A stretch of 51,099 bases of DNA from sequence record NC_129764.1. One strand, 5' to 3'. Below are positions 4,227-44,560 of this stretch, piece after piece. Position 1 is the first letter of the stretch. The number at the start of each line of letters is the position of its first letter. The notes under the pieces are model-generated. The model did not search any database. It worked only from the letters and a program-made list of their open reading frames with translations, and was not told where the DNA came from. Origin of the DNA: a phage. The translations under genes were made by a program, and so were the position numbers.

Positions 4227-4375
4227 TGACTGCATGGGTTTTGATTATCTTAATGAGTACCGGGCCAGATCACGTATACATGGAAAGCCAACAATCATGC
4301 AACAAGGCACGGGAAGTTATCGCAGAAAATAAGCCGTTCGGATATGAAGTAAAAACTATGTGTGTTAAACGATAG
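4226..4375 (+). CDS. small protein (49 aa)
   Basis: TAATG overlap with upstream stop; hydrophobic N-terminus; stop TAG in motif; below track cutoff. Confidence 0.3.
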   Translation: MTAWVLIILMSTGPDHVYMESQQSCNKAREVIAENKPFGYEVKTMCVKR

Positions 4376-4390
4376 CACGAATTGCTAAAC
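4372..4390 (+). promoter_or_regulatory. dyad motif copy ATAGCACGAATTGCTAAAC
   Basis: Sequence match; downstream hairpin aaggcca-tttgatatag-tggcctt. Confidence 0.65.
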
Positions 4391-6352: not shown

Positions 6353-6886
6353 ATGGATAAAATCACAATTTGGGGCCAGACAATCAACCTGTTTCTCGGC
6401 ACGCGCCGAGTGGCAATCTTTGACTTTGACGGGACACTTAGCGATGGATCTGGTCGACTTCACCTGCTGCCAACAAAGGATTTGCACTTGACTGAAAGCT
6501 GGTCCGAGTTTAACCGCGCGGCAATATTTGACAACCCAATCCAGAGCACGATCGATGTGATGAACTCTATGTTTGCCGCTGGGTATCATGTGATCATTTT
6601 AACCGGGAGAAGTGATGAGGTGCGTTACGCATCTGAGTTATGGCTTAAGCATCACGGCGCTCGATATGATTACTTAGTCATGCGACCGCATACCGACAAC
6701 CGAAAAGACACGGTAATGAAAGAAGAGGCAGTGCGCGCGATCGGCATTGAGAACATTCTGGCGGCATGGGATGACTCACCGCAAATTATTCCATTATTCC
6801 GGTCGCTTGGAATAACCACTTACGCTGTAGTTGACTATGGCGATAAAGTTCACGAACATTTAAAATCTCACGGGGTAGATGAATGA
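6353..6886 (+). CDS. HAD-superfamily phosphatase (177 aa)
   Basis: HAD motif I FDFDGTL, motif II-like ILTGR, C-terminal acidic DD motif. Confidence 0.65.
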   Translation: MDKITIWGQTINLFLGTRRVAIFDFDGTLSDGSGRLHLLPTKDLHLTESWSEFNRAAIFDNPIQSTIDVMNSMFAAGYHVIILTGRSDEVRYASELWLKHHGARYDYLVMRPHTDNRKDTVMKEEAVRAIGIENILAAWDDSPQIIPLFRSLGITTYAVVDYGDKVHEHLKSHGVDE

Positions 6887-6994
6887 ACCTGTACGAATTT
6901 ATTTCAGCACATCCGGTATTAACGGTTATCATCCTGTTAATCATCAATCACACTATCATCAATGTGGCAAAATTATTTTTAGGGAGATGCTAAC

Positions 6995-7567
6995 ATGAAA
7001 ACAGCTATCATTTTAAACGGCGCGCCGGGCGCAGGCAAAGACACTATCGGATGCATCCTGGCCGACACTTACGATCACGTAGCGCTACGCAGCTTCAAGG
7101 CGCCAATGTTTGAGATTGCCCGAGCAATATTGGGTGAGACTAATTTCGAATACTTCATGTTCTTGTATGAGGACCGTCGATATAAAGAAGAGCCAGCATC
7201 AATCCTGAACGGTAAAAGCCCGCGCCAGTTTATGATCTGGATTAGCGAGGAGGTCATCAAGCCGCAGTTCGGAAATCGCTTCTTCGGTATGCGAGCGGAA
7301 AGCAAGGTGAAAGAGTCTCACTCCCTTTCGGTATTTACTGACGGTGGATTCAAAGACGAGATCTTGCAGATGATTGAAGGTGATATCCAGGTAAAGCTAT
7401 GTCGAATCCATCGCAACGGTTGCAACTTTGACAACGACAGCCGCGACTATATCTATCTTGACGATATGATCGGGGTCAACGGTTATCAGGAATGTGACTT
7501 CTTTTCTGTCGAAGGCCATCCAGAAATTACCGCCCAGCACATAGCCGCCACGTTCATCAACAAATAG
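6995..7567 (+). CDS. P-loop kinase (190 aa), possibly polynucleotide or nucleotide kinase
   Basis: Walker A GAPGAGKDT at N-terminus. Confidence 0.6.
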   Translation: MKTAIILNGAPGAGKDTIGCILADTYDHVALRSFKAPMFEIARAILGETNFEYFMFLYEDRRYKEEPASILNGKSPRQFMIWISEEVIKPQFGNRFFGMRAESKVKESHSLSVFTDGGFKDEILQMIEGDIQVKLCRIHRNGCNFDNDSRDYIYLDDMIGVNGYQECDFFSVEGHPEITAQHIAATFINK

Positions 7568-35714: not shown

Positions 35715-35734
35715 AATAGCACGAATTGCTAAAT
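35715..35734 (+). promoter_or_regulatory. dyad motif copy AATAGCACGAATTGCTAAAT (reads reversed relative to the tail fibre gene)
   Basis: Sequence match about 20 nt upstream of the tail fibre start; TTGCAA-N17-TAAAAT on minus strand just upstream. Confidence 0.55.
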
Positions 35735-37338: not shown

Positions 37339-39357
37339 GTGACAATTAACATCAAAAAGCAAATCGCATTACTTGGCGAGGACTATATAAAACGCACTCA
37401 AGAACGATTCACTGTTGGTGAGGTAGTTCCGTATCCGTACCAGGTTGTTGCTTATGCTGAGATCGCAAAACGCCTATCAAATTATGAGCATCCATTCTTT
37501 GTTAAAGCGTCAGTATCGGCGGGTAAGACCATCATTTTTGCTATGGTTGCAAAGCAGTGTCAAAAAATGGGCTTGAAAATGCTCGTGCTGGCACGCCAGG
37601 GTGAGATTGTCGATCAGGATAGTGAAGAGATCGACAATTTCGGAGTGACTAACTCTATATTCTCAGCGTCACTTGGAATCAAGTCTTGCTACTTCCCGAT
37701 CGTGGTAGGCTCTGAGGGCACTGTTGCAAATGGTTTAAATAATGAGTTGGCTGATTTTGTCCCTCACGTAATCGGGATAGATGAATGTCACCAGGTGGAT
37801 TGGGAAGACCTTGCGCAAGCCATAGACGGAAAGGAAACAATGGAACAGATGCGGGGAGAGAAAGGGAAAATTATCATGGACGGTGATACTCCTCTGATTG
37901 GTAATGATGGAAAGCCTCTTCTTGGAACTAAGCGCAGTCAGTACACGATCGTAATCATGGAAATGATGCGACGCTGTAAAGAGGTTCACGGTCACGACCT
38001 TAGAATATTTGGTATGACTGGATCTGAATTTAGGGGTGTAGTTCCTATTCTTGTTGAGAATCCAAAGGCGTTAGGCTTCTGGCGTGAGCGCGTTACTGAT
38101 ATAGACACCAACTACCTTATTGAGTTTGGCTCAGTCGTTCCGACTATATTCGGCTCGACGGACGGAGTTCACTACGATCTTGATAAATTTAAGGCATCAA
38201 GCGAGGATGGGGTACAGGACTTCACAGAGAAAGATATGAAGGCAATGGAAGATGAGATCCTTCATGATAAATCTCTTACCCAGCGAATCATGCAAATGGT
38301 TGCCAAAAAGGCTGAAGAGCGTAACGCAGTTCTGATTACATGCGCCGGGGTGCGTCACTGCAAAGAGGCGGCGGCGGCACTACCACCAGGAAGCACATAT
38401 GCAATTATTACTGGCGACACAGACACTAAAACGCGCAAGAAGATTCTTGATGATGTGAGGGCCGGGAAAATTAAATATACCTTTCAGGTCATGGCGCTAA
38501 CTACTGGAGTTAACGTTCCAAATTGGGATTTTAGTGTAATACTTCGCAAGATAGGATCTCTTACCTTGCTGATTCAGCTTTTGGGTAGGGGTATGCGACT
38601 TCTTAAATCCTGGCAGGTTGCTGAAGGAATGGTTAAGCAAGATCATCTGGTATGGGATTTTGCTGGTACGATGGACGAGTTGGGGCAGCTTTATTTCGAT
38701 CCTATACTTGAGCAGGCTCAGTTCCAGAAGCGATTTGAGAACGGAAAAGACCCGAAAACGTGTCCGAAATGTGGTTGCGTAAATAGCTTCTATGCTCGCC
38801 GATGCGTTAACGTTATCGACGGTGAGCGCTGTGATCATTTCTGGACTTCTCAGATTTGCGAGGACCAGGTTGATGAGCGCACTGGGAAAATTCTTGTTAA
38901 AGGGTGCGGTGCCGAGAATGACGTTGTGGCCAGAGTCTGTCGCTGTTGCGATGTTTCTCTTGTTGATCCTAACCTTAAGTTATCCGGTAAGGCGTACACT
39001 AAGAATGACTGGTACGAGGTCAAGAATTTTGAGGTTACGTTAACCAAAAACCAAAAAGGCGTGATATACAAATACACGCTTATTAACGATGAAGGTGATG
39101 AGTTCAAAGCGTATGAAAAATTCTTCCCTGAGTCAGACTCTAAGATCTGCGGTACTCTATGGAAAACGAAAGGCGTACTTCCTCATGTGTCAGATCCTAA
39201 AATGCGTCGCTACTTTATCGGAATGAAGAATGCTATCAAGATCGTGCAATACTCACATCATATAGCGCATCCGGTACGCGTCACCCATAGACGCAACCAG
39301 AAGAAAGAAGATATTATTTCACGCAAAGACTTCGGTATGGAGGATATCCCGGAATGA
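37339..39357 (+). CDS. SF2 DNA helicase (672 aa), GTG start
   Basis: Walker A SAGKT, DECH box GIDECHQ, C-terminal Cys clusters. Confidence 0.8.
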   Translation: MTINIKKQIALLGEDYIKRTQERFTVGEVVPYPYQVVAYAEIAKRLSNYEHPFFVKASVSAGKTIIFAMVAKQCQKMGLKMLVLARQGEIVDQDSEEIDNFGVTNSIFSASLGIKSCYFPIVVGSEGTVANGLNNELADFVPHVIGIDECHQVDWEDLAQAIDGKETMEQMRGEKGKIIMDGDTPLIGNDGKPLLGTKRSQYTIVIMEMMRRCKEVHGHDLRIFGMTGSEFRGVVPILVENPKALGFWRERVTDIDTNYLIEFGSVVPTIFGSTDGVHYDLDKFKASSEDGVQDFTEKDMKAMEDEILHDKSLTQRIMQMVAKKAEERNAVLITCAGVRHCKEAAAALPPGSTYAIITGDTDTKTRKKILDDVRAGKIKYTFQVMALTTGVNVPNWDFSVILRKIGSLTLLIQLLGRGMRLLKSWQVAEGMVKQDHLVWDFAGTMDELGQLYFDPILEQAQFQKRFENGKDPKTCPKCGCVNSFYARRCVNVIDGERCDHFWTSQICEDQVDERTGKILVKGCGAENDVVARVCRCCDVSLVDPNLKLSGKAYTKNDWYEVKNFEVTLTKNQKGVIYKYTLINDEGDEFKAYEKFFPESDSKICGTLWKTKGVLPHVSDPKMRRYFIGMKNAIKIVQYSHHIAHPVRVTHRRNQKKEDIISRKDFGMEDIPE

Positions 39358-39770
39358 TTACAGACAAAGGCGATTACTTAGAGTTTTACGAGCGAGATCC
39401 TAGCGACACGAGAAAGGAGGACGCTCATCAAGTAGATTGCGTATCCTGGTTGAAATACAATTTTCCTCAGCTTCTATTTTGGCACACAGTTAATGAAGGT
39501 GAAAAAACAATAACGTCGGCGCTAAGGGATGAACAGTCTGGATTACTCAAAGGTGTGTCAGACTTTGTTATTCTGATTGGTATAAACTCACGCTACCCGT
39601 TTGCAGCTATCGAACTAAAGAGGGTTAATAAGTCCGGCAAAGGAAAGGCATCACCAGTCAGCGATAAGCAAAGGGAGTTTCTCAAAAAGGTTCGTGATCG
39701 CGGAGGATTCTCTGCCGTCGCATACGGATTTGAGCAATTCAAGCTGGCAATATACGATTTAACGAAATAG
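39354..39770 (+). CDS. VRR-NUC domain nuclease (138 aa)
   Basis: GVSDFVIL ... AIELKR ... SDKQREFL pattern typical of VRR-NUC. Confidence 0.6.
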   Translation: MITDKGDYLEFYERDPSDTRKEDAHQVDCVSWLKYNFPQLLFWHTVNEGEKTITSALRDEQSGLLKGVSDFVILIGINSRYPFAAIELKRVNKSGKGKASPVSDKQREFLKKVRDRGGFSAVAYGFEQFKLAIYDLTK

Positions 39771-39786
39771 CACTTTTTGTTAAAAC
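39766..39786 (+). promoter_or_regulatory. dyad motif copy AATAGCACTTTTTGTTAAAAC
   Basis: Sequence match; stop TAG embedded; hairpin tgccggaatggaatctggca downstream. Confidence 0.65.
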
Positions 39787-40551: not shown

Positions 40552-40799
40552 TGAGCGAAAAAATGGTTCCTGTTAAATTAACTGATCAAGGGTTATGGCT
40601 TCTTTATCGCGCTACGTGCTGCGAAATTATGGAGCGAAACGGATTAACTCAAGATGTTATTGGTTGCGATTTATGGGAGTTTACAAGTTCTCTTGATATG
40701 TCGTTCGATGAGATAAAGAATAAACATATCGAGCATTGGCCTTCAATCATTCAGAAAGACGTAGAAGAACTTAAATCCGACACGATCTTACAGCACTAA
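40548..40799 (+). CDS. hypothetical protein (83 aa)
   Basis: ATGA overlap with methylase gene. Confidence 0.5.
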   Translation: MMSEKMVPVKLTDQGLWLLYRATCCEIMERNGLTQDVIGCDLWEFTSSLDMSFDEIKNKHIEHWPSIIQKDVEELKSDTILQH

Positions 40800-40809
40800 T
40801 TGCTAAAAC
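40791..40809 (+). promoter_or_regulatory. dyad motif variant CAGCACTAATTGCTAAAAC
   Basis: Sequence match; hairpin acccggcgaaagtcgggt followed by TATAGT. Confidence 0.55.
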
Positions 40810-40865
40810 TACCCGGCGAAAGTCGGGTATAGTTATTTCATCAAAACGAAATGAGGAATAAGAAT

Positions 40866-41075: not shown

Positions 41076-41325
41076 ACGCGAGGTTTGGGAGCACGCGAAG
41101 GAGTGCGGGATCTCAGGTGATATAGCACTAATAGCCAAATATTTCGATATAAAGGATGTTAGCATTATCTCAAATGGCAAGATTTCATTTATGGAAGATA
41201 TGCCGAGAAAAATGCATAGAGTGCCAGCCACCCCATCACTTGAATTTTATCGTGAAGAAGGAAAGAGAATTGAGAGAGAACGAAAAACAGCAAAGAACAA
41301 TAAGTCTTCCAGGATTAAACATTAA
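41053..41325 (+). CDS. hypothetical protein (90 aa); possibly the 5' part of a frameshifted gene continuing to 41557
   Basis: ORF with RBS; an overlapping ORF in another frame (41156-41557) has a protein-like 3' half without a plausible start. Confidence 0.35.
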   Translation: MLIKKQGKREVWEHAKECGISGDIALIAKYFDIKDVSIISNGKISFMEDMPRKMHRVPATPSLEFYREEGKRIERERKTAKNNKSSRIKH

Positions 41326-41635
41326 CGAAGACGATTACCAGACCATATGGATCGGAAAGAAGCAGGTTAAGAAAATACCTTTCTCTGATTGGTTGCCTCC
41401 TGACTTCGCAAACGTGCTGTGTACCATAGGGATCGATCAGGAGTTGCATATAGGTTATTACTCACCTGGTAGAAACAGTATGATGCTTGAGGTTGACGGA
41501 AAGCTGGTTGAGTTTAAATCGTCAGATCTAGGATTCTGGTTAAAGGCTGTGGCATGAATCTTTATTTTGCTGTAGTATTAACACCGCTAATTTCATTTTC
41601 AGTAATGTATTTCATTATCATGTAAGGATTAAAAT

Positions 41636-42787
41636 ATGTCACAAGCTAAAATCACTACCGAGCAACTTATCGAAGAGCGCATGAGCGGCCTTACACTTCG
41701 CGAGATTGCGGAAAAGTACGGTATGCACATCCGCACTGTTGAAGCTCGTCACGCAAAACTTGCAAAGGAAGGTCACTTCCACGGTAACGAGCATGTTGCT
41801 AAGAACGTACCGGAAGGATTCATGGTAAAAGGCACATCAACGATGATTCGCGGCGATGGGACCGAGGTAGTGCGATGGGTTAAGACCGATCAGGACCGTG
41901 AGAAGATTGCGGCAATGATGGAAGCAGCGCGTATTGCATTCTGTGAAGACTTGCCGCGAGCAAAACCAACTGAGCTACTCACATCGCAAGGGCTTACAAC
42001 CGCTATTGGCAAGCTGGCACTCTACCCGGTGTTCGATCTTCACATTGGCGCGCTTGCTCACAAGCATGAATGCGGAGAGAACTACTCTACAGACGTAGCG
42101 GAAAAAGTGCTGAATGACTTCTTTAACTACGCGATCGATATTGCCCCGAACGCAGAGAAGGCTGTTCTGTTAATCGGCGGCGACTTCCTTCACTCAGACG
42201 GTCTTGATGCTGTTACCCCGGCAAGCGGTCACGTTCTGGATCAGGATTCACGATATGCGAAATTGGTGCATGTGGCTATTCGATCGGTGCGACGAGCTAT
42301 CGACAAAATGCTGACTAAACACAAAGAGGTCGAAGTTCAGGTTATCGAAGGGAACCACGACCAGGCCGGAATGATTTGGCTACGCGCTGCAATGGCTGCA
42401 TACTATGAGGACGAGCCGCGAGTATTCGTTGACGTTAGTCCTATGATTCTGCATAAGACCCGCTGGGGAAATACCTTGTTGGGATACACTCACGGTCACA
42501 CGATGAAAAAGGCAGACACGCGACTTGCAGCGATGGCGGCAGACTTCCGTGCAGACTTCGGTGAAAGCAAATACGTGTATACTCACAGTGGACACTGGCA
42601 CCATCAAACAATCACAGAACACTCGTTAGGTATTGATGAGGTTCACGGGCAGTTAGGCGCGAAAGATGCATACGCCGCGCGAGGCGGGTGGCGCTCATAT
42701 CGCCAGGCGGCGGTAATCGTTTACGATAAACAGTTTGGTGAAATCGGTCGATTCATCTATCGTCCAGAAATGACAGGATCGCACTAA
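41636..42787 (+). CDS. metallophosphoesterase (calcineurin-like) with N-terminal HTH-like segment (383 aa)
   Basis: Motifs GDFLHSDG, GNHD, GH; N-terminal LTLREIAEKYGMHIRTVEA. Confidence 0.55.
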   Translation: MSQAKITTEQLIEERMSGLTLREIAEKYGMHIRTVEARHAKLAKEGHFHGNEHVAKNVPEGFMVKGTSTMIRGDGTEVVRWVKTDQDREKIAAMMEAARIAFCEDLPRAKPTELLTSQGLTTAIGKLALYPVFDLHIGALAHKHECGENYSTDVAEKVLNDFFNYAIDIAPNAEKAVLLIGGDFLHSDGLDAVTPASGHVLDQDSRYAKLVHVAIRSVRRAIDKMLTKHKEVEVQVIEGNHDQAGMIWLRAAMAAYYEDEPRVFVDVSPMILHKTRWGNTLLGYTHGHTMKKADTRLAAMAADFRADFGESKYVYTHSGHWHHQTITEHSLGIDEVHGQLGAKDAYAARGGWRSYRQAAVIVYDKQFGEIGRFIYRPEMTGSH

Positions 42788-42798
42788 TCGCAAAAAAC
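42778..42798 (+). promoter_or_regulatory. degenerate dyad motif ATCGCACTAATCGCAAAAAAC
   Basis: About 14 of 21 positions match; followed by hairpin cccgaagggattcggg and TATATT. Confidence 0.3.
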
Positions 42799-42850
42799 TC
42801 CCGAAGGGATTCGGGTATATTGACCACATAGAAAACAAAGAGGGTATTTC

Positions 42851-43027
42851 ATGAAACGAGTTAAGTGCATCCGAAATGATTCCAAAACGCTTCCATTCCG
42901 CGTAAATCAGATCTATAGTGTTGGTTATGATTTCGGAGGTGGATTGTTTGAGATTTACGATGGTAGAGGTTCAACAATCCAAGCTCCTCTGAACGGTCAT
43001 TACCTGGAATTTATTGAGCTAGATTAA
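42851..43027 (+). CDS. small protein (58 aa)
   Basis: ATG with RBS aagagggtatttcATG; below track cutoff. Confidence 0.4.
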   Translation: MKRVKCIRNDSKTLPFRVNQIYSVGYDFGGGLFEIYDGRGSTIQAPLNGHYLEFIELD

Positions 43028-43145
43028 CAATATCATTCATAACCTTACGGGCTGGCATGGTTTACATGCTGGCCTTTTTGCGTTGTATCAAGTAAATTTG
43101 AAGGTTAAAATCAACTCACTTGTTCAAAAAATATATGGTGAGATT

Positions 43146-44539: not shown

Positions 44540-44560
44540 GTTTTAACAAAAAGTGCTATT
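44540..44560 (-). promoter_or_regulatory. dyad motif copy (minus strand AATAGCACTTTTTGTTAAAAC)
   Basis: Sequence match; hairpin acccgatctcgtatcgggt followed by TATATT. Confidence 0.65.

What the first reader, a model, noticed from the sequence alone, without database searches (positions are those of the whole stretch)
41636..42787. Calcineurin-like metallophosphoesterase with an N-terminal HTH-like segment
The 383-aa protein carries phosphoesterase motifs (GDFLHSDG, GNHD, GH) after an N-terminal segment that looks like a helix-turn-helix (LTLREIAEKYGMHIRTVEA). A DNA-binding module fused to a phosphoesterase is unusual. It could be a nuclease targeted to specific sites, a protein phosphatase acting on host factors, or a cyclic nucleotide phosphodiesterase that degrades host defence signalling molecules.
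Basis: inference. Interest (0 to 1): 0.45.

Follow-up and report, generated by a model that had tools for sequence, protein, structure and literature searches.

The report
Phage HTH-fused metallophosphoesterase, probable nuclease
This gene of a T1-like phage really encodes a DNA-binding helix-turn-helix joined to a metal-dependent phosphoesterase that most resembles DNA nucleases, but it belongs to a very common, already catalogued phage family whose biochemical role has never been tested.

Summary
Window 41636-42787 (+) is a 383-aa gene with a good ribosome-binding site. It has an N-terminal three-helix HTH (aa 8-44), a conserved beta-hairpin plus helix (aa 62-104), and a complete calcineurin-type metallophosphoesterase core (aa 123-383). 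All five metal-binding motifs are invariant across the family.

The window is a Tunavirus, 99% identical to Shigella phage Sfin-3. The protein is the ortholog of phage T1 ST16 and a full-length member of PHROG 704 ("DNA repair exonuclease"). Relatives occur in about 2,000 deposited phage genomes, in 4,633 clusters at 50% identity, and in lambdoid prophages. The fusion is therefore not unusual.

The closest structures to the predicted model are nucleases: PolD DP1, Mre11 and SbcD. Generic phosphodiesterases score almost as well. Sequence similarity to Mre11/SbcD, T4 gp47 and T5 A1 is not significant, and no Rad50/SbcC partner is present.

Best reading: a DNA-tethered nuclease of phage DNA metabolism. 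It is a candidate for the still unassigned host-chromosome degradation activity of T1-like phages. A role as a protein phosphatase is not supported. A role as a signal-nucleotide phosphodiesterase is not excluded. Overall this is an ordinary, catalogued but uncharacterised gene of modest interest.

The parts
41636..42787 (+). Complete CDS for the 383-aa HTH-metallophosphoesterase, the ortholog of phage T1 ST16 and a member of PHROG 704
   Evidence: ORF list. PHROG 704 match over the full length, E 5e-157. 99.3% DNA identity to Sfin-3 gp55, annotated 'DNA repair exonuclease'. T1 ST16.
41624..41628 (+). Shine-Dalgarno-like AAGGA, 7 nt before the ATG
   Evidence: Read directly from the sequence.
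41657..41767 (+). N-terminal three-helix helix-turn-helix domain (aa 8-44; helices 8-16, 21-28, 32-44)
41819..41947 (+). Conserved beta-hairpin (aa 62-71, 77-86) plus helix (aa 88-104). Carries the family motif KG-S...WVKT with invariant W81. Role unknown.
42002..42784 (+). Calcineurin-like metallophosphoesterase catalytic domain (aa 123-383)
42035..42049 (+). Motif I, D134-L-H136-I-G138 (metal ligands)
   Evidence: Invariant. Aligned to the DwHLG motif of T. maritima Mre11.
42179..42193 (+). Motif II, G182-D183-F-L-H186 (bridging Asp, then a His as in Mre11 GDLLH/GDLFH)
   Evidence: Invariant. Alignment to the T. maritima Mre11 motif GDLLHS.
42350..42361 (+). Motif III, G239-N240-H241-D242
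   Evidence: G239, N240 and H241 are invariant; N240 and H241 are also at least 95% conserved.
42491..42496 (+). Motif IV, H286-G287
   Evidence: H286 is invariant.
42590..42601 (+). Motif V, G319-H320-W-H322
   Evidence: Invariant.
41122..41139 (+). Nearest upstream copy (2 mismatches) of the phage's repeated promoter-like element ATAGCAC-N3-TTGYTAAA. Another copy lies at 40790-40807.
   Evidence: 26 copies in the window against 0.25 expected by chance. Most copies point the way the local genes are transcribed; three minus-strand copies (103, 16102, 19868) lie in regions whose transcription direction was not checked.
42800..42815 (.). Hairpin CCCGAAGGGATTCGGG just after the stop codon, at the position where T1 has an annotated terminator after ST16
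   Evidence: T1 terminator annotation at 41980-42007.
43049..43075 (+). Strong intrinsic-terminator-like hairpin that closes the transcription unit after the 58-aa ORF (42851-43027) and before the lysis cassette
   Evidence: 11-bp stem with 6 GC pairs, followed by a T run.

Best explanation
The gene encodes a divalent-metal-dependent phosphodiesterase that acts on DNA, that is, a nuclease. Its catalytic core is of the Mre11/SbcD/PolD-DP1 type. An N-terminal three-helix HTH brings it to DNA, possibly with help from the conserved beta-hairpin module.

It lies in the same transcription direction as the phage's DNA-metabolism genes (helicase, VRR-NUC-like protein, Dam methylase), behind the same promoter-like elements that precede the early genes.

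The most likely job is processing DNA during phage replication and recombination. In virulent T1-like phages it may also break down the host chromosome to feed nucleotide salvage.

Shown here: the ORF, the domain architecture, the intact active-site motifs, the fold and the family distribution. Inferred: DNA as the substrate, nuclease activity and the biological role.
For: - Fold and catalytic motifs: all five metallophosphoesterase motifs are invariant. The AF2 model has mean pLDDT 89.7.
- Sequence hints: the only sequence-level PDB hits of the catalytic-domain profile are T. maritima Mre11/SbcD over motifs I-II, DxHLG...GDxxH, at E about 1. H186 in motif II is invariant in the family. From my own knowledge, the corresponding His in Mre11 (P. 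furiosus H52, human H63) is needed for exonuclease activity.
- Gene context is DNA and nucleotide metabolism in several lineages. The window has helicase, VRR-NUC-like protein and Dam upstream. The Vibrio phage has SSB at -1. DnaB-like helicase is at +1 in 10 loci, and a HAD 3'-phosphatase plus dNMP kinase pair is at +1/+2 in 17 loci from 3 lineages. Prophages carry a MazG-like pyrophosphohydrolase at -1 together with replication genes.
- Precedents: mycobacteriophage A10ZJ24 gp48, a stand-alone metallophosphoesterase, degrades DNA in vitro and host DNA in vivo (PMC12287305). The predicted metallophosphatase A1 of T5 is necessary and sufficient for host chromosome digestion, and A2, a separate DNA-binding protein, is also essential (bioRxiv 10.64898/2026.04.02.716235).
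- Open niche: T1 and TLS degrade the host genome and reuse the nucleotides, and the responsible gene has not been identified (PMC11447400).
Against: - No biochemical data exist for any member that I could find.
- Sequence similarity to Mre11/SbcD is not significant (E about 1). hhalign gives under 1% probability against T4 gp47 and T5 A1.
- There is no capping domain, and no Rad50/SbcC-like partner is annotated in the Sfin-3 region or in T1.
- The family also occurs in lambdoid prophages with CI-like repressors. Wholesale host-DNA destruction therefore cannot be the function common to the whole family.
- The neighbouring genes would fit a nucleotide-directed enzyme equally well.
Confidence: 0.55

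Rival explanations
1. It is a small-molecule phosphodiesterase or pyrophosphatase acting on nucleotides. Candidate substrates are cyclic or linear signalling nucleotides of host defence systems, 2',3'-cNMPs, Ap4A or dNTP-related compounds. The HTH would serve only to localise or regulate it.
Against: A fused DNA-binding HTH conserved across the whole family is hard to explain for a soluble-nucleotide enzyme. Motif II carries the Mre11-type His. From my own knowledge, the characterised phage enzymes that destroy immune signals use other folds (Acb1 is 2H, Apyc1 is metallo-beta-lactamase). No PADLOC family matches, though PADLOC covers defence rather than counter-defence proteins.
Confidence: 0.2
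2. It is a nucleic-acid end-healing enzyme (2',3'-cyclic phosphodiesterase and/or 3'-phosphatase). It would work with the HAD-type polynucleotide 3'-phosphatase and kinase genes to repair DNA or RNA ends damaged by host nucleases.
For: A HAD 'polynucleotide kinase' (PHROG 415, with the DxDGT motif) lies immediately downstream of the gene in 17 loci from three lineages. A homolog of that gene is present in the window at 6416-6919. From my own knowledge, the phosphoesterase domain of Clostridium thermocellum Pnkp is a calcineurin-type enzyme with this activity.
Confidence: 0.1
3. It is primarily a transcription regulator. The HTH would bind phage promoters, for example the repeated ATAGCAC-N3-TTGYTAAA element, and the phosphoesterase domain would act as a sensor or accessory.
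For: The HTH is of the sigma-70 region 4, LuxR or Lrp-like type. The window has 26 copies of a promoter-associated element containing a short palindrome that could be an operator. In prophages the gene lies between the replication genes and the late genes.
Against: All catalytic residues are under strict conservation across thousands of clusters, which points to an active enzyme. The recognition helix is poorly conserved. The phage has a separate dedicated regulator, the ST23 homolog. The promoter element is specific to T1-like phages, whereas the protein family is far broader.
Confidence: 0.05
4. It is a protein Ser/Thr/Tyr phosphatase acting on host factors, like lambda phosphatase (NinI).
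For: It belongs to the same superfamily. In lambdoid prophages it occupies a nin-like position between replication and late genes.
Confidence: 0.03

Closest known systems
PHROG 704 / phage T1 ST16 (YP_003929) / TLS gp66 / Sfin-3 gp55, catalogued as 'DNA repair exonuclease', 'phosphoesterase' or 'proof-reading exonuclease'
   Same: Full-length homology: profile positions 2-389 of 390, E 5e-157. Same length, same HTH-hairpin-phosphoesterase architecture and same genomic position just upstream of the lysis cassette.
   Different: Nothing substantive; the window protein is a member. The family's names are automatic annotations, and I found no experimental work on it.
Mre11 / SbcD nucleases (for example T. 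maritima Mre11 3qg5/2q8u, S. aureus SbcD 7dog, T4 gp47)
   Different: No significant sequence similarity: E about 1 and hhalign probability 0.7% against gp47, which belongs to PHROG 100 rather than 704. No capping domain and no Rad50/SbcC-binding helices. No Rad50/SbcC gene is annotated in Sfin-3 or T1. The N-terminal HTH is absent from Mre11.
PolD small subunit DP1 (5ihe), the archaeal 3'-5' proofreading exonuclease
   Different: Only 13% identity. No DP2 catalytic partner, and according to the TLS paper T1-like phages encode no DNA polymerase at all. The N-terminal module is an HTH plus hairpin, not the OB fold of DP1 (the DP1 OB fold is from my own knowledge).
Phage T5 A1 (predicted metallophosphatase) with A2 (DNA-binding protein)
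   Same: It comes from a virulent coliphage that destroys the host chromosome. It combines a metallophosphatase-type nuclease with an HTH-type DNA-binding function (annotation). The window protein would be a single-chain version of that logic.
   Different: No detectable homology: hhalign probability 0.8% for A1 and 0.4% for A2. They fall in different PHROGs, 1745 and 1725. T5 uses two proteins, A1 is 556 aa, both are pre-early genes, and they are also needed for second-step DNA transfer.
Mycobacteriophage A10ZJ24 gp48 (Cluster A metallophosphoesterase)
   Same: A phage-encoded stand-alone metallophosphoesterase with the five motifs. It has demonstrated phosphodiesterase and DNase activity and a counter-defence role through host DNA damage (PMC12287305).
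   Different: Motif I starts at residue 10 (mutant D10G), so there is no N-terminal HTH module. Homology to the window protein beyond the superfamily level was not tested because I did not have the sequence.
Lambda Ser/Thr phosphatase (NinI) and PPP phosphatases
   Same: Same superfamily and a binuclear metal centre.

Membership tests
Calcineurin-like metallophosphoesterase superfamily | Five conserved motifs that bind two metal ions: DxH, GD, GNH[D/E], H, GHxH | tested here: met
   D134/H136, G182/D183, G239/N240/H241/D242, H286 and G319/H320/H322 are all present. They are invariant across the family.
Calcineurin-like metallophosphoesterase superfamily | Beta-alpha-beta-alpha-beta sandwich fold | tested here: met
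Calcineurin-like metallophosphoesterase superfamily | Score above the Pfam gathering threshold for Metallophos or Metallophos_2 | tested here: not met
   16.2 bits against 27, and 15.7 bits against 21.5. Only 6 and 3 of 105 homologs match these models at E <= 0.01. The family is too divergent for these models.
Calcineurin-like metallophosphoesterase superfamily | Metal-dependent phosphoester hydrolysis | not testable with these tools
   Needs enzyme assays.
PHROG 704 (T1 ST16-like HTH-phosphoesterase) | Full-length match to the family profile | tested here: met
   E 5.1e-157; residues 4-380 match profile positions 2-389 of 390. 72% identity to a Tunavirus 'phosphoesterase' cluster.
Helix-turn-helix DNA-binding domains (tri-helical; resolvase, LuxR/GerE, sigma-70 region 4, Lrp types) | Three-helix bundle with helix-turn-helix geometry | tested here: met
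Helix-turn-helix DNA-binding domains (tri-helical; resolvase, LuxR/GerE, sigma-70 region 4, Lrp types) | Significant profile match to an HTH family | tested here: inconclusive
   The window protein gives only sub-threshold hits, E 0.02-0.15. Homologs in the same alignment column block hit HTH_8 at 2.8e-8, Sigma70_r4_2 at 5e-7 and HTH_1 at 1.8e-6.
Helix-turn-helix DNA-binding domains (tri-helical; resolvase, LuxR/GerE, sigma-70 region 4, Lrp types) | Binds DNA | not testable with these tools
   Needs EMSA or footprinting.
Mre11/SbcD nuclease family | Significant sequence homology to Mre11/SbcD | tested here: not met
   The best PDB profile hit is T. maritima Mre11 at E about 1. hhalign against T4 gp47 gives probability 0.7%. 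gp47 belongs to PHROG 100.
Mre11/SbcD nuclease family | C-terminal capping domain and Rad50-binding helices | tested here: not met
Mre11/SbcD nuclease family | Partner Rad50/SbcC ATPase encoded alongside | tested here: not met
   No such gene is annotated in the Sfin-3 region or in the full T1 record, nor among the conserved neighbours.
Mre11/SbcD nuclease family | Motif II His (GDxxH) associated with nuclease activity | tested here: met
   H186 is invariant and aligned to the GDLLHS motif of T. maritima Mre11. Its functional meaning comes from my own knowledge, not from a test.
PolD DP1 small subunit | OB-fold plus phosphodiesterase domain, working with the DP2 polymerase subunit | tested here: not met
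T5 A1 host-DNA-degradation protein (PHROG 1745) | Sequence homology to A1 | tested here: not met
   hhalign probability 0.8%, with only 20 columns aligned around GNHD. The PHROGs differ.
PPP-type protein phosphatases (lambda phosphatase) | GDxVDRG and GNHE signatures | tested here: not met
Known anti-phage defence proteins (PADLOC) | Match to any PADLOC model | tested here: not met
   No family matched at E <= 1.

The most novel reading that the evidence does not exclude
The HTH-metallophosphoesterase is the long-unassigned nuclease that T1-like phages use to destroy the host chromosome and recycle its nucleotides. It would be a single-chain functional equivalent of the T5 A1 (nuclease) plus A2 (DNA-binding) pair. 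Loss of it would reproduce the classical T1 mutants that fail to degrade host DNA and transduce at high frequency.
Probability: 0.2. Interest if true: 0.55.

Novelty: already known. Interest (0 to 1): 0.28.

Why it matters
The family sits in about 4% of deposited phage genomes. These include many therapeutic candidates against E. coli, Klebsiella, Salmonella, Vibrio and Campylobacter, yet the family carries only automatic names.

If it is a DNA-tethered nuclease, it would fill a gap stated explicitly in the T1/TLS literature: which gene degrades the host genome. That question bears on the generalised-transduction risk of T1-like therapeutic phages. It would also add an HTH-guided member to the short list of phage metallophosphoesterase nucleases (T5 A1, mycobacteriophage gp48).

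If it instead hydrolyses nucleotides, it would be a new type of nucleotide-pool or counter-defence enzyme.

As it stands, the finding is a correct description of an ordinary, catalogued gene.

Tried and rejected
1. **HNH endonuclease as an obligate partner.** A PHROG 99 HNH gene lies right next to the gene in T1, a Jerseyvirus, a Vibrio phage and three other loci. It is present in only 8-9 of 84 sequences searched, at variable positions, and is absent here. I rejected it as a partner; these look like homing endonucleases.
2. **Homology to T5 A1 and A2.** hhalign probabilities were below 1%. Rejected as family membership and kept only as a functional analogy.
3. **Homology to T4 gp47 (SbcD).** Probability 0.7%, and a different PHROG. 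Rejected.
4. **Direct PDB sequence search with the single protein.** No hits. Profile searches gave only E about 0.5-2.
5. **NCBIfam.** Only noise-level hits, sigma70-ECF at E 0.035 and PdeM at E 0.042. **PADLOC.** Nothing.
6. **afdb50 fold library.** Not available.
7. **Literature searches for experimental work on this family or for defence-escape mutations in it.** Nothing relevant.
8. **Host-DNA degradation as the function of the whole family.** Weakened by finding members in lambdoid prophages with CI-like repressors.
9. **Small flanking ORFs as conserved partners** (41156-41557 and 42851-43027). They were found in only 10 and 14 of 84 sequences searched and are restricted to close relatives.
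10. **tRNAs and terminal repeats in the window.** None.

Full report
**What is there.** The window is a T1-like siphophage genome (Drexlerviridae, Tunavirus). The 2.4 kb around the finding is 99.3% identical to Shigella phage Sfin-3. It has an ATG start and an AAGGA ribosome-binding site 7 nt upstream, and it encodes 383 aa. The encoded protein is 100% identical to one annotated 'DNA repair exonuclease' in Escherichia phage EF3-1. It is the ortholog of Sfin-3 gp55 and of phage T1 ST16.

**Checking the motifs and the fold.** Pfam alone is not convincing. Metallophos_2 and Metallophos score 16.2 and 15.7 bits, below their cut-offs, and several HTH models score about 13-15 bits at aa 10-46. The single protein has no sequence hit in the PDB.

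The family evidence is strong. In a 105-sequence alignment spanning 25-80% identity to the query, the invariant residues include these:
- D134, H136 and G138 (motif I)
- G182, D183 and H186 (motif II)
- G239, N240 and H241 (motif III)
- H286 (motif IV)
- G319, H320 and H322 (motif V)

All of these except G239 are also at least 95% conserved among 138 cluster representatives plus the query.

AlphaFold2 with that alignment gives a confident model, with mean pLDDT 89.7. It has three helices (8-16, 21-28, 32-44), a beta-hairpin (62-71, 77-86) with a following helix (88-104), a lower-confidence linker, and a compact alpha/beta domain from about residue 123 to the end.

The hairpin module carries a family signature, KG-S...WVKT, with invariant W81. 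It has no obvious structural counterpart, and its role is open.

**How common it is.** The protein matches PHROG 704 ('DNA repair exonuclease') over the whole profile, E 5e-157. tblastn finds relatives in 2,021 of 50,697 phage records. By organism name these are Escherichia 559, Klebsiella 468, Salmonella 373, Vibrio 254, Campylobacter 60 and others. An exhaustive HMMER search finds 4,633 clusters at 50% identity, and nearly all of the best 150 are 370-420 aa, so they share the same two-part architecture. NCBI already names members 'winged helix-turn-helix domain-containing protein', 'metallophosphoesterase' or 'DNA repair exonuclease'. The TLS re-annotation calls the syntenic gene gp66, which lies just before the holin gp67, a 'proof-reading exonuclease'. 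The fusion is therefore not unusual among phages. It is catalogued but, as far as my searches show, uncharacterised.

**Context.** In the window the gene lies downstream of, and on the same strand as, an SF2 helicase, a VRR-NUC-like protein, a Dam methylase and small ORFs. Terminator-like hairpins occur within that stretch (window 40810-40829; annotated terminators in T1), so it is not necessarily one transcript. A 58-aa ORF, a strong terminator (43049-43075) and the holin-endolysin-spanin cassette follow the gene.

The window carries 26 copies of a promoter-like element, ATAGCAC-N3-TTGYTAAA, against 0.25 expected by chance. Most copies point the way the local genes are transcribed. Copies at 40790 and 41122 lie upstream of the gene, and the same element precedes the small early genes. 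This suggests early or middle expression by host RNA polymerase, which is an inference.

Across 83 related loci, immediate neighbours vary but repeatedly belong to DNA and nucleotide metabolism:
- DnaB-like helicase at +1 in 10 loci.
- A HAD-type polynucleotide 3'-phosphatase plus dNMP kinase pair at +1/+2 in 17 loci from three lineages. In this window that pair sits at 6416-7543.
- SSB at -1, and a nucleoside deoxyribosyltransferase and a MazG-like enzyme downstream, in a Vibrio phage.

A scan of bacterial genomes found 35 loci, many of them inside large chromosomal contigs. There the gene lies in lambdoid prophages that carry CI-like S24 repressors, an O-like initiator, DnaB, a MazG-like pyrophosphohydrolase at -1, a portal protein and an endolysin. 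The family therefore serves temperate phages too.

**Mechanism.** I commit to a DNA-directed metallophosphodiesterase, that is, a nuclease tethered to DNA by its HTH. The grounds are as follows.
- The nearest structures are nucleases.
- The only PDB sequence hits of the catalytic-domain profile are T. maritima Mre11 over motifs I-II, DxHLG...GDxxH.
- H186 is invariant. From my own knowledge, the equivalent Mre11 His is needed for exonuclease action.
- The DNA-binding module is conserved across the family.
- The genomic company is replication and nucleotide metabolism.

Two precedents exist for phage metallophosphoesterases acting as DNases. Mycobacteriophage A10ZJ24 gp48 cleaves linear, plasmid and genomic DNA and wrecks the host genome (PMC12287305). 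The 'predicted metallo-phosphatase' A1 of T5 is essential and sufficient for chromosomal digestion, and A2, a separate DNA-binding protein, is also essential.

T1 and TLS degrade the host genome and reuse its nucleotides. The TLS authors state that they could not identify the responsible early gene product (PMC11447400). This protein is a reasonable candidate for that role.

The caveats are real.
- Similarity to Mre11, T4 gp47 and T5 A1 is statistically insignificant.
- No capping domain or Rad50/SbcC partner is present.
- Prophage membership argues that the function shared by the family is gentler than genome destruction, more likely end or intermediate processing during replication and recombination.

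I put about 0.55 on 'nuclease acting on DNA' and about 0.2 on the specific host-chromosome-degradation role in T1-like phages.

**Rivals.**
- An end-healing 2',3'-cyclic phosphodiesterase or 3'-phosphatase working with the HAD enzyme (about 0.1) fits one recurrent adjacency, but that adjacency is not obligatory.
- A regulator role (about 0.05) fits less well, because the catalytic residues are strictly conserved and the recognition helix is variable.
- A PPP-like protein phosphatase role (about 0.03) is contradicted by the motif spelling and the low structural scores.

**Comparison with what is known.** The protein is a member of the calcineurin-like superfamily by motifs and fold, though not by Pfam threshold, and it is a member of PHROG 704. 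It is not a member of the Mre11/SbcD, DP1, T5 A1 or PPP families, because defining features were tested and not met (see the membership table). It may still work like an Mre11- or DP1-type nuclease.

**Verdict.** This is an already catalogued, very widespread phage gene with unknown biochemistry. Interest is modest. Its main value is as a concrete, testable candidate for the unassigned host-DNA degradation function of T1-like phages.

Noticed in passing
window 103-51014 (26 sites, e.g. 2085-2102, 4372-4389, 35716-35733, 39767-39784, 44542-44559): A conserved promoter-like element, ATAGCAC-N3-TTG[CT]TAAA, followed about 17 nt later by a TATAGT-like -10. There are 26 matches against 0.25 expected. 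Most copies point the way the local genes are transcribed. It contains a 5-bp inverted repeat, TAGCA/TGCTA, overlapping the -35, so it could be an operator for a phage HTH protein.
   Followed up: partly
L084 (T1) 42028-42510; L003 7181-7672; L002 7213-7839; also L030, L064, L022: A PHROG 99 HNH endonuclease lies directly beside the phosphoesterase gene in at least six loci, some of them only distantly related. It is absent at that spot in this window (42788-42850 is intergenic). It looks like free-standing homing endonucleases repeatedly inserting next to a conserved gene.
   Followed up: partly
window 6416-6919 and 6995-7543; L010, L056 and 15 other loci at +1/+2 of the phosphoesterase gene: A HAD-type 'polynucleotide kinase' (3'-phosphatase-like, DxDGT motif, PHROG 415) and a dNMP kinase (PHROG 139) always travel as a pair. 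The pair lies immediately downstream of the phosphoesterase gene in 17 loci from three lineages, but 35 kb away in this window.
   Followed up: partly
L087-L112 (bacterial chromosomal contigs, e.g. L092, L094, L100): Family members sit in lambdoid prophages with CI-like S24 repressors, an O-like initiator and DnaB. A MazG-like dATP/dGTP pyrophosphohydrolase often lies just upstream and a PHROG 3412 protein of unknown function just downstream.
   Followed up: partly
window 41156-41557: The ORF upstream of the gene can start at 41156 (133 aa). The RefSeq homologs (Sfin-3 gp54, T1 ST17) are annotated as 95 aa, corresponding to a start near 41270. The PHROG matches cover only the C-terminal 54-83 residues, which favours the shorter start.
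   Followed up: no
window 39354-39770: The 138-aa ORF after the helicase gives a weak match to an endonuclease PHROG (phrog_93, E 3e-5) and a strong one to phrog_824 of unknown function. The TLS paper calls a gene in the same replication region a Holliday-junction resolvase. It is another candidate nuclease in the same gene cluster.
   Followed up: no
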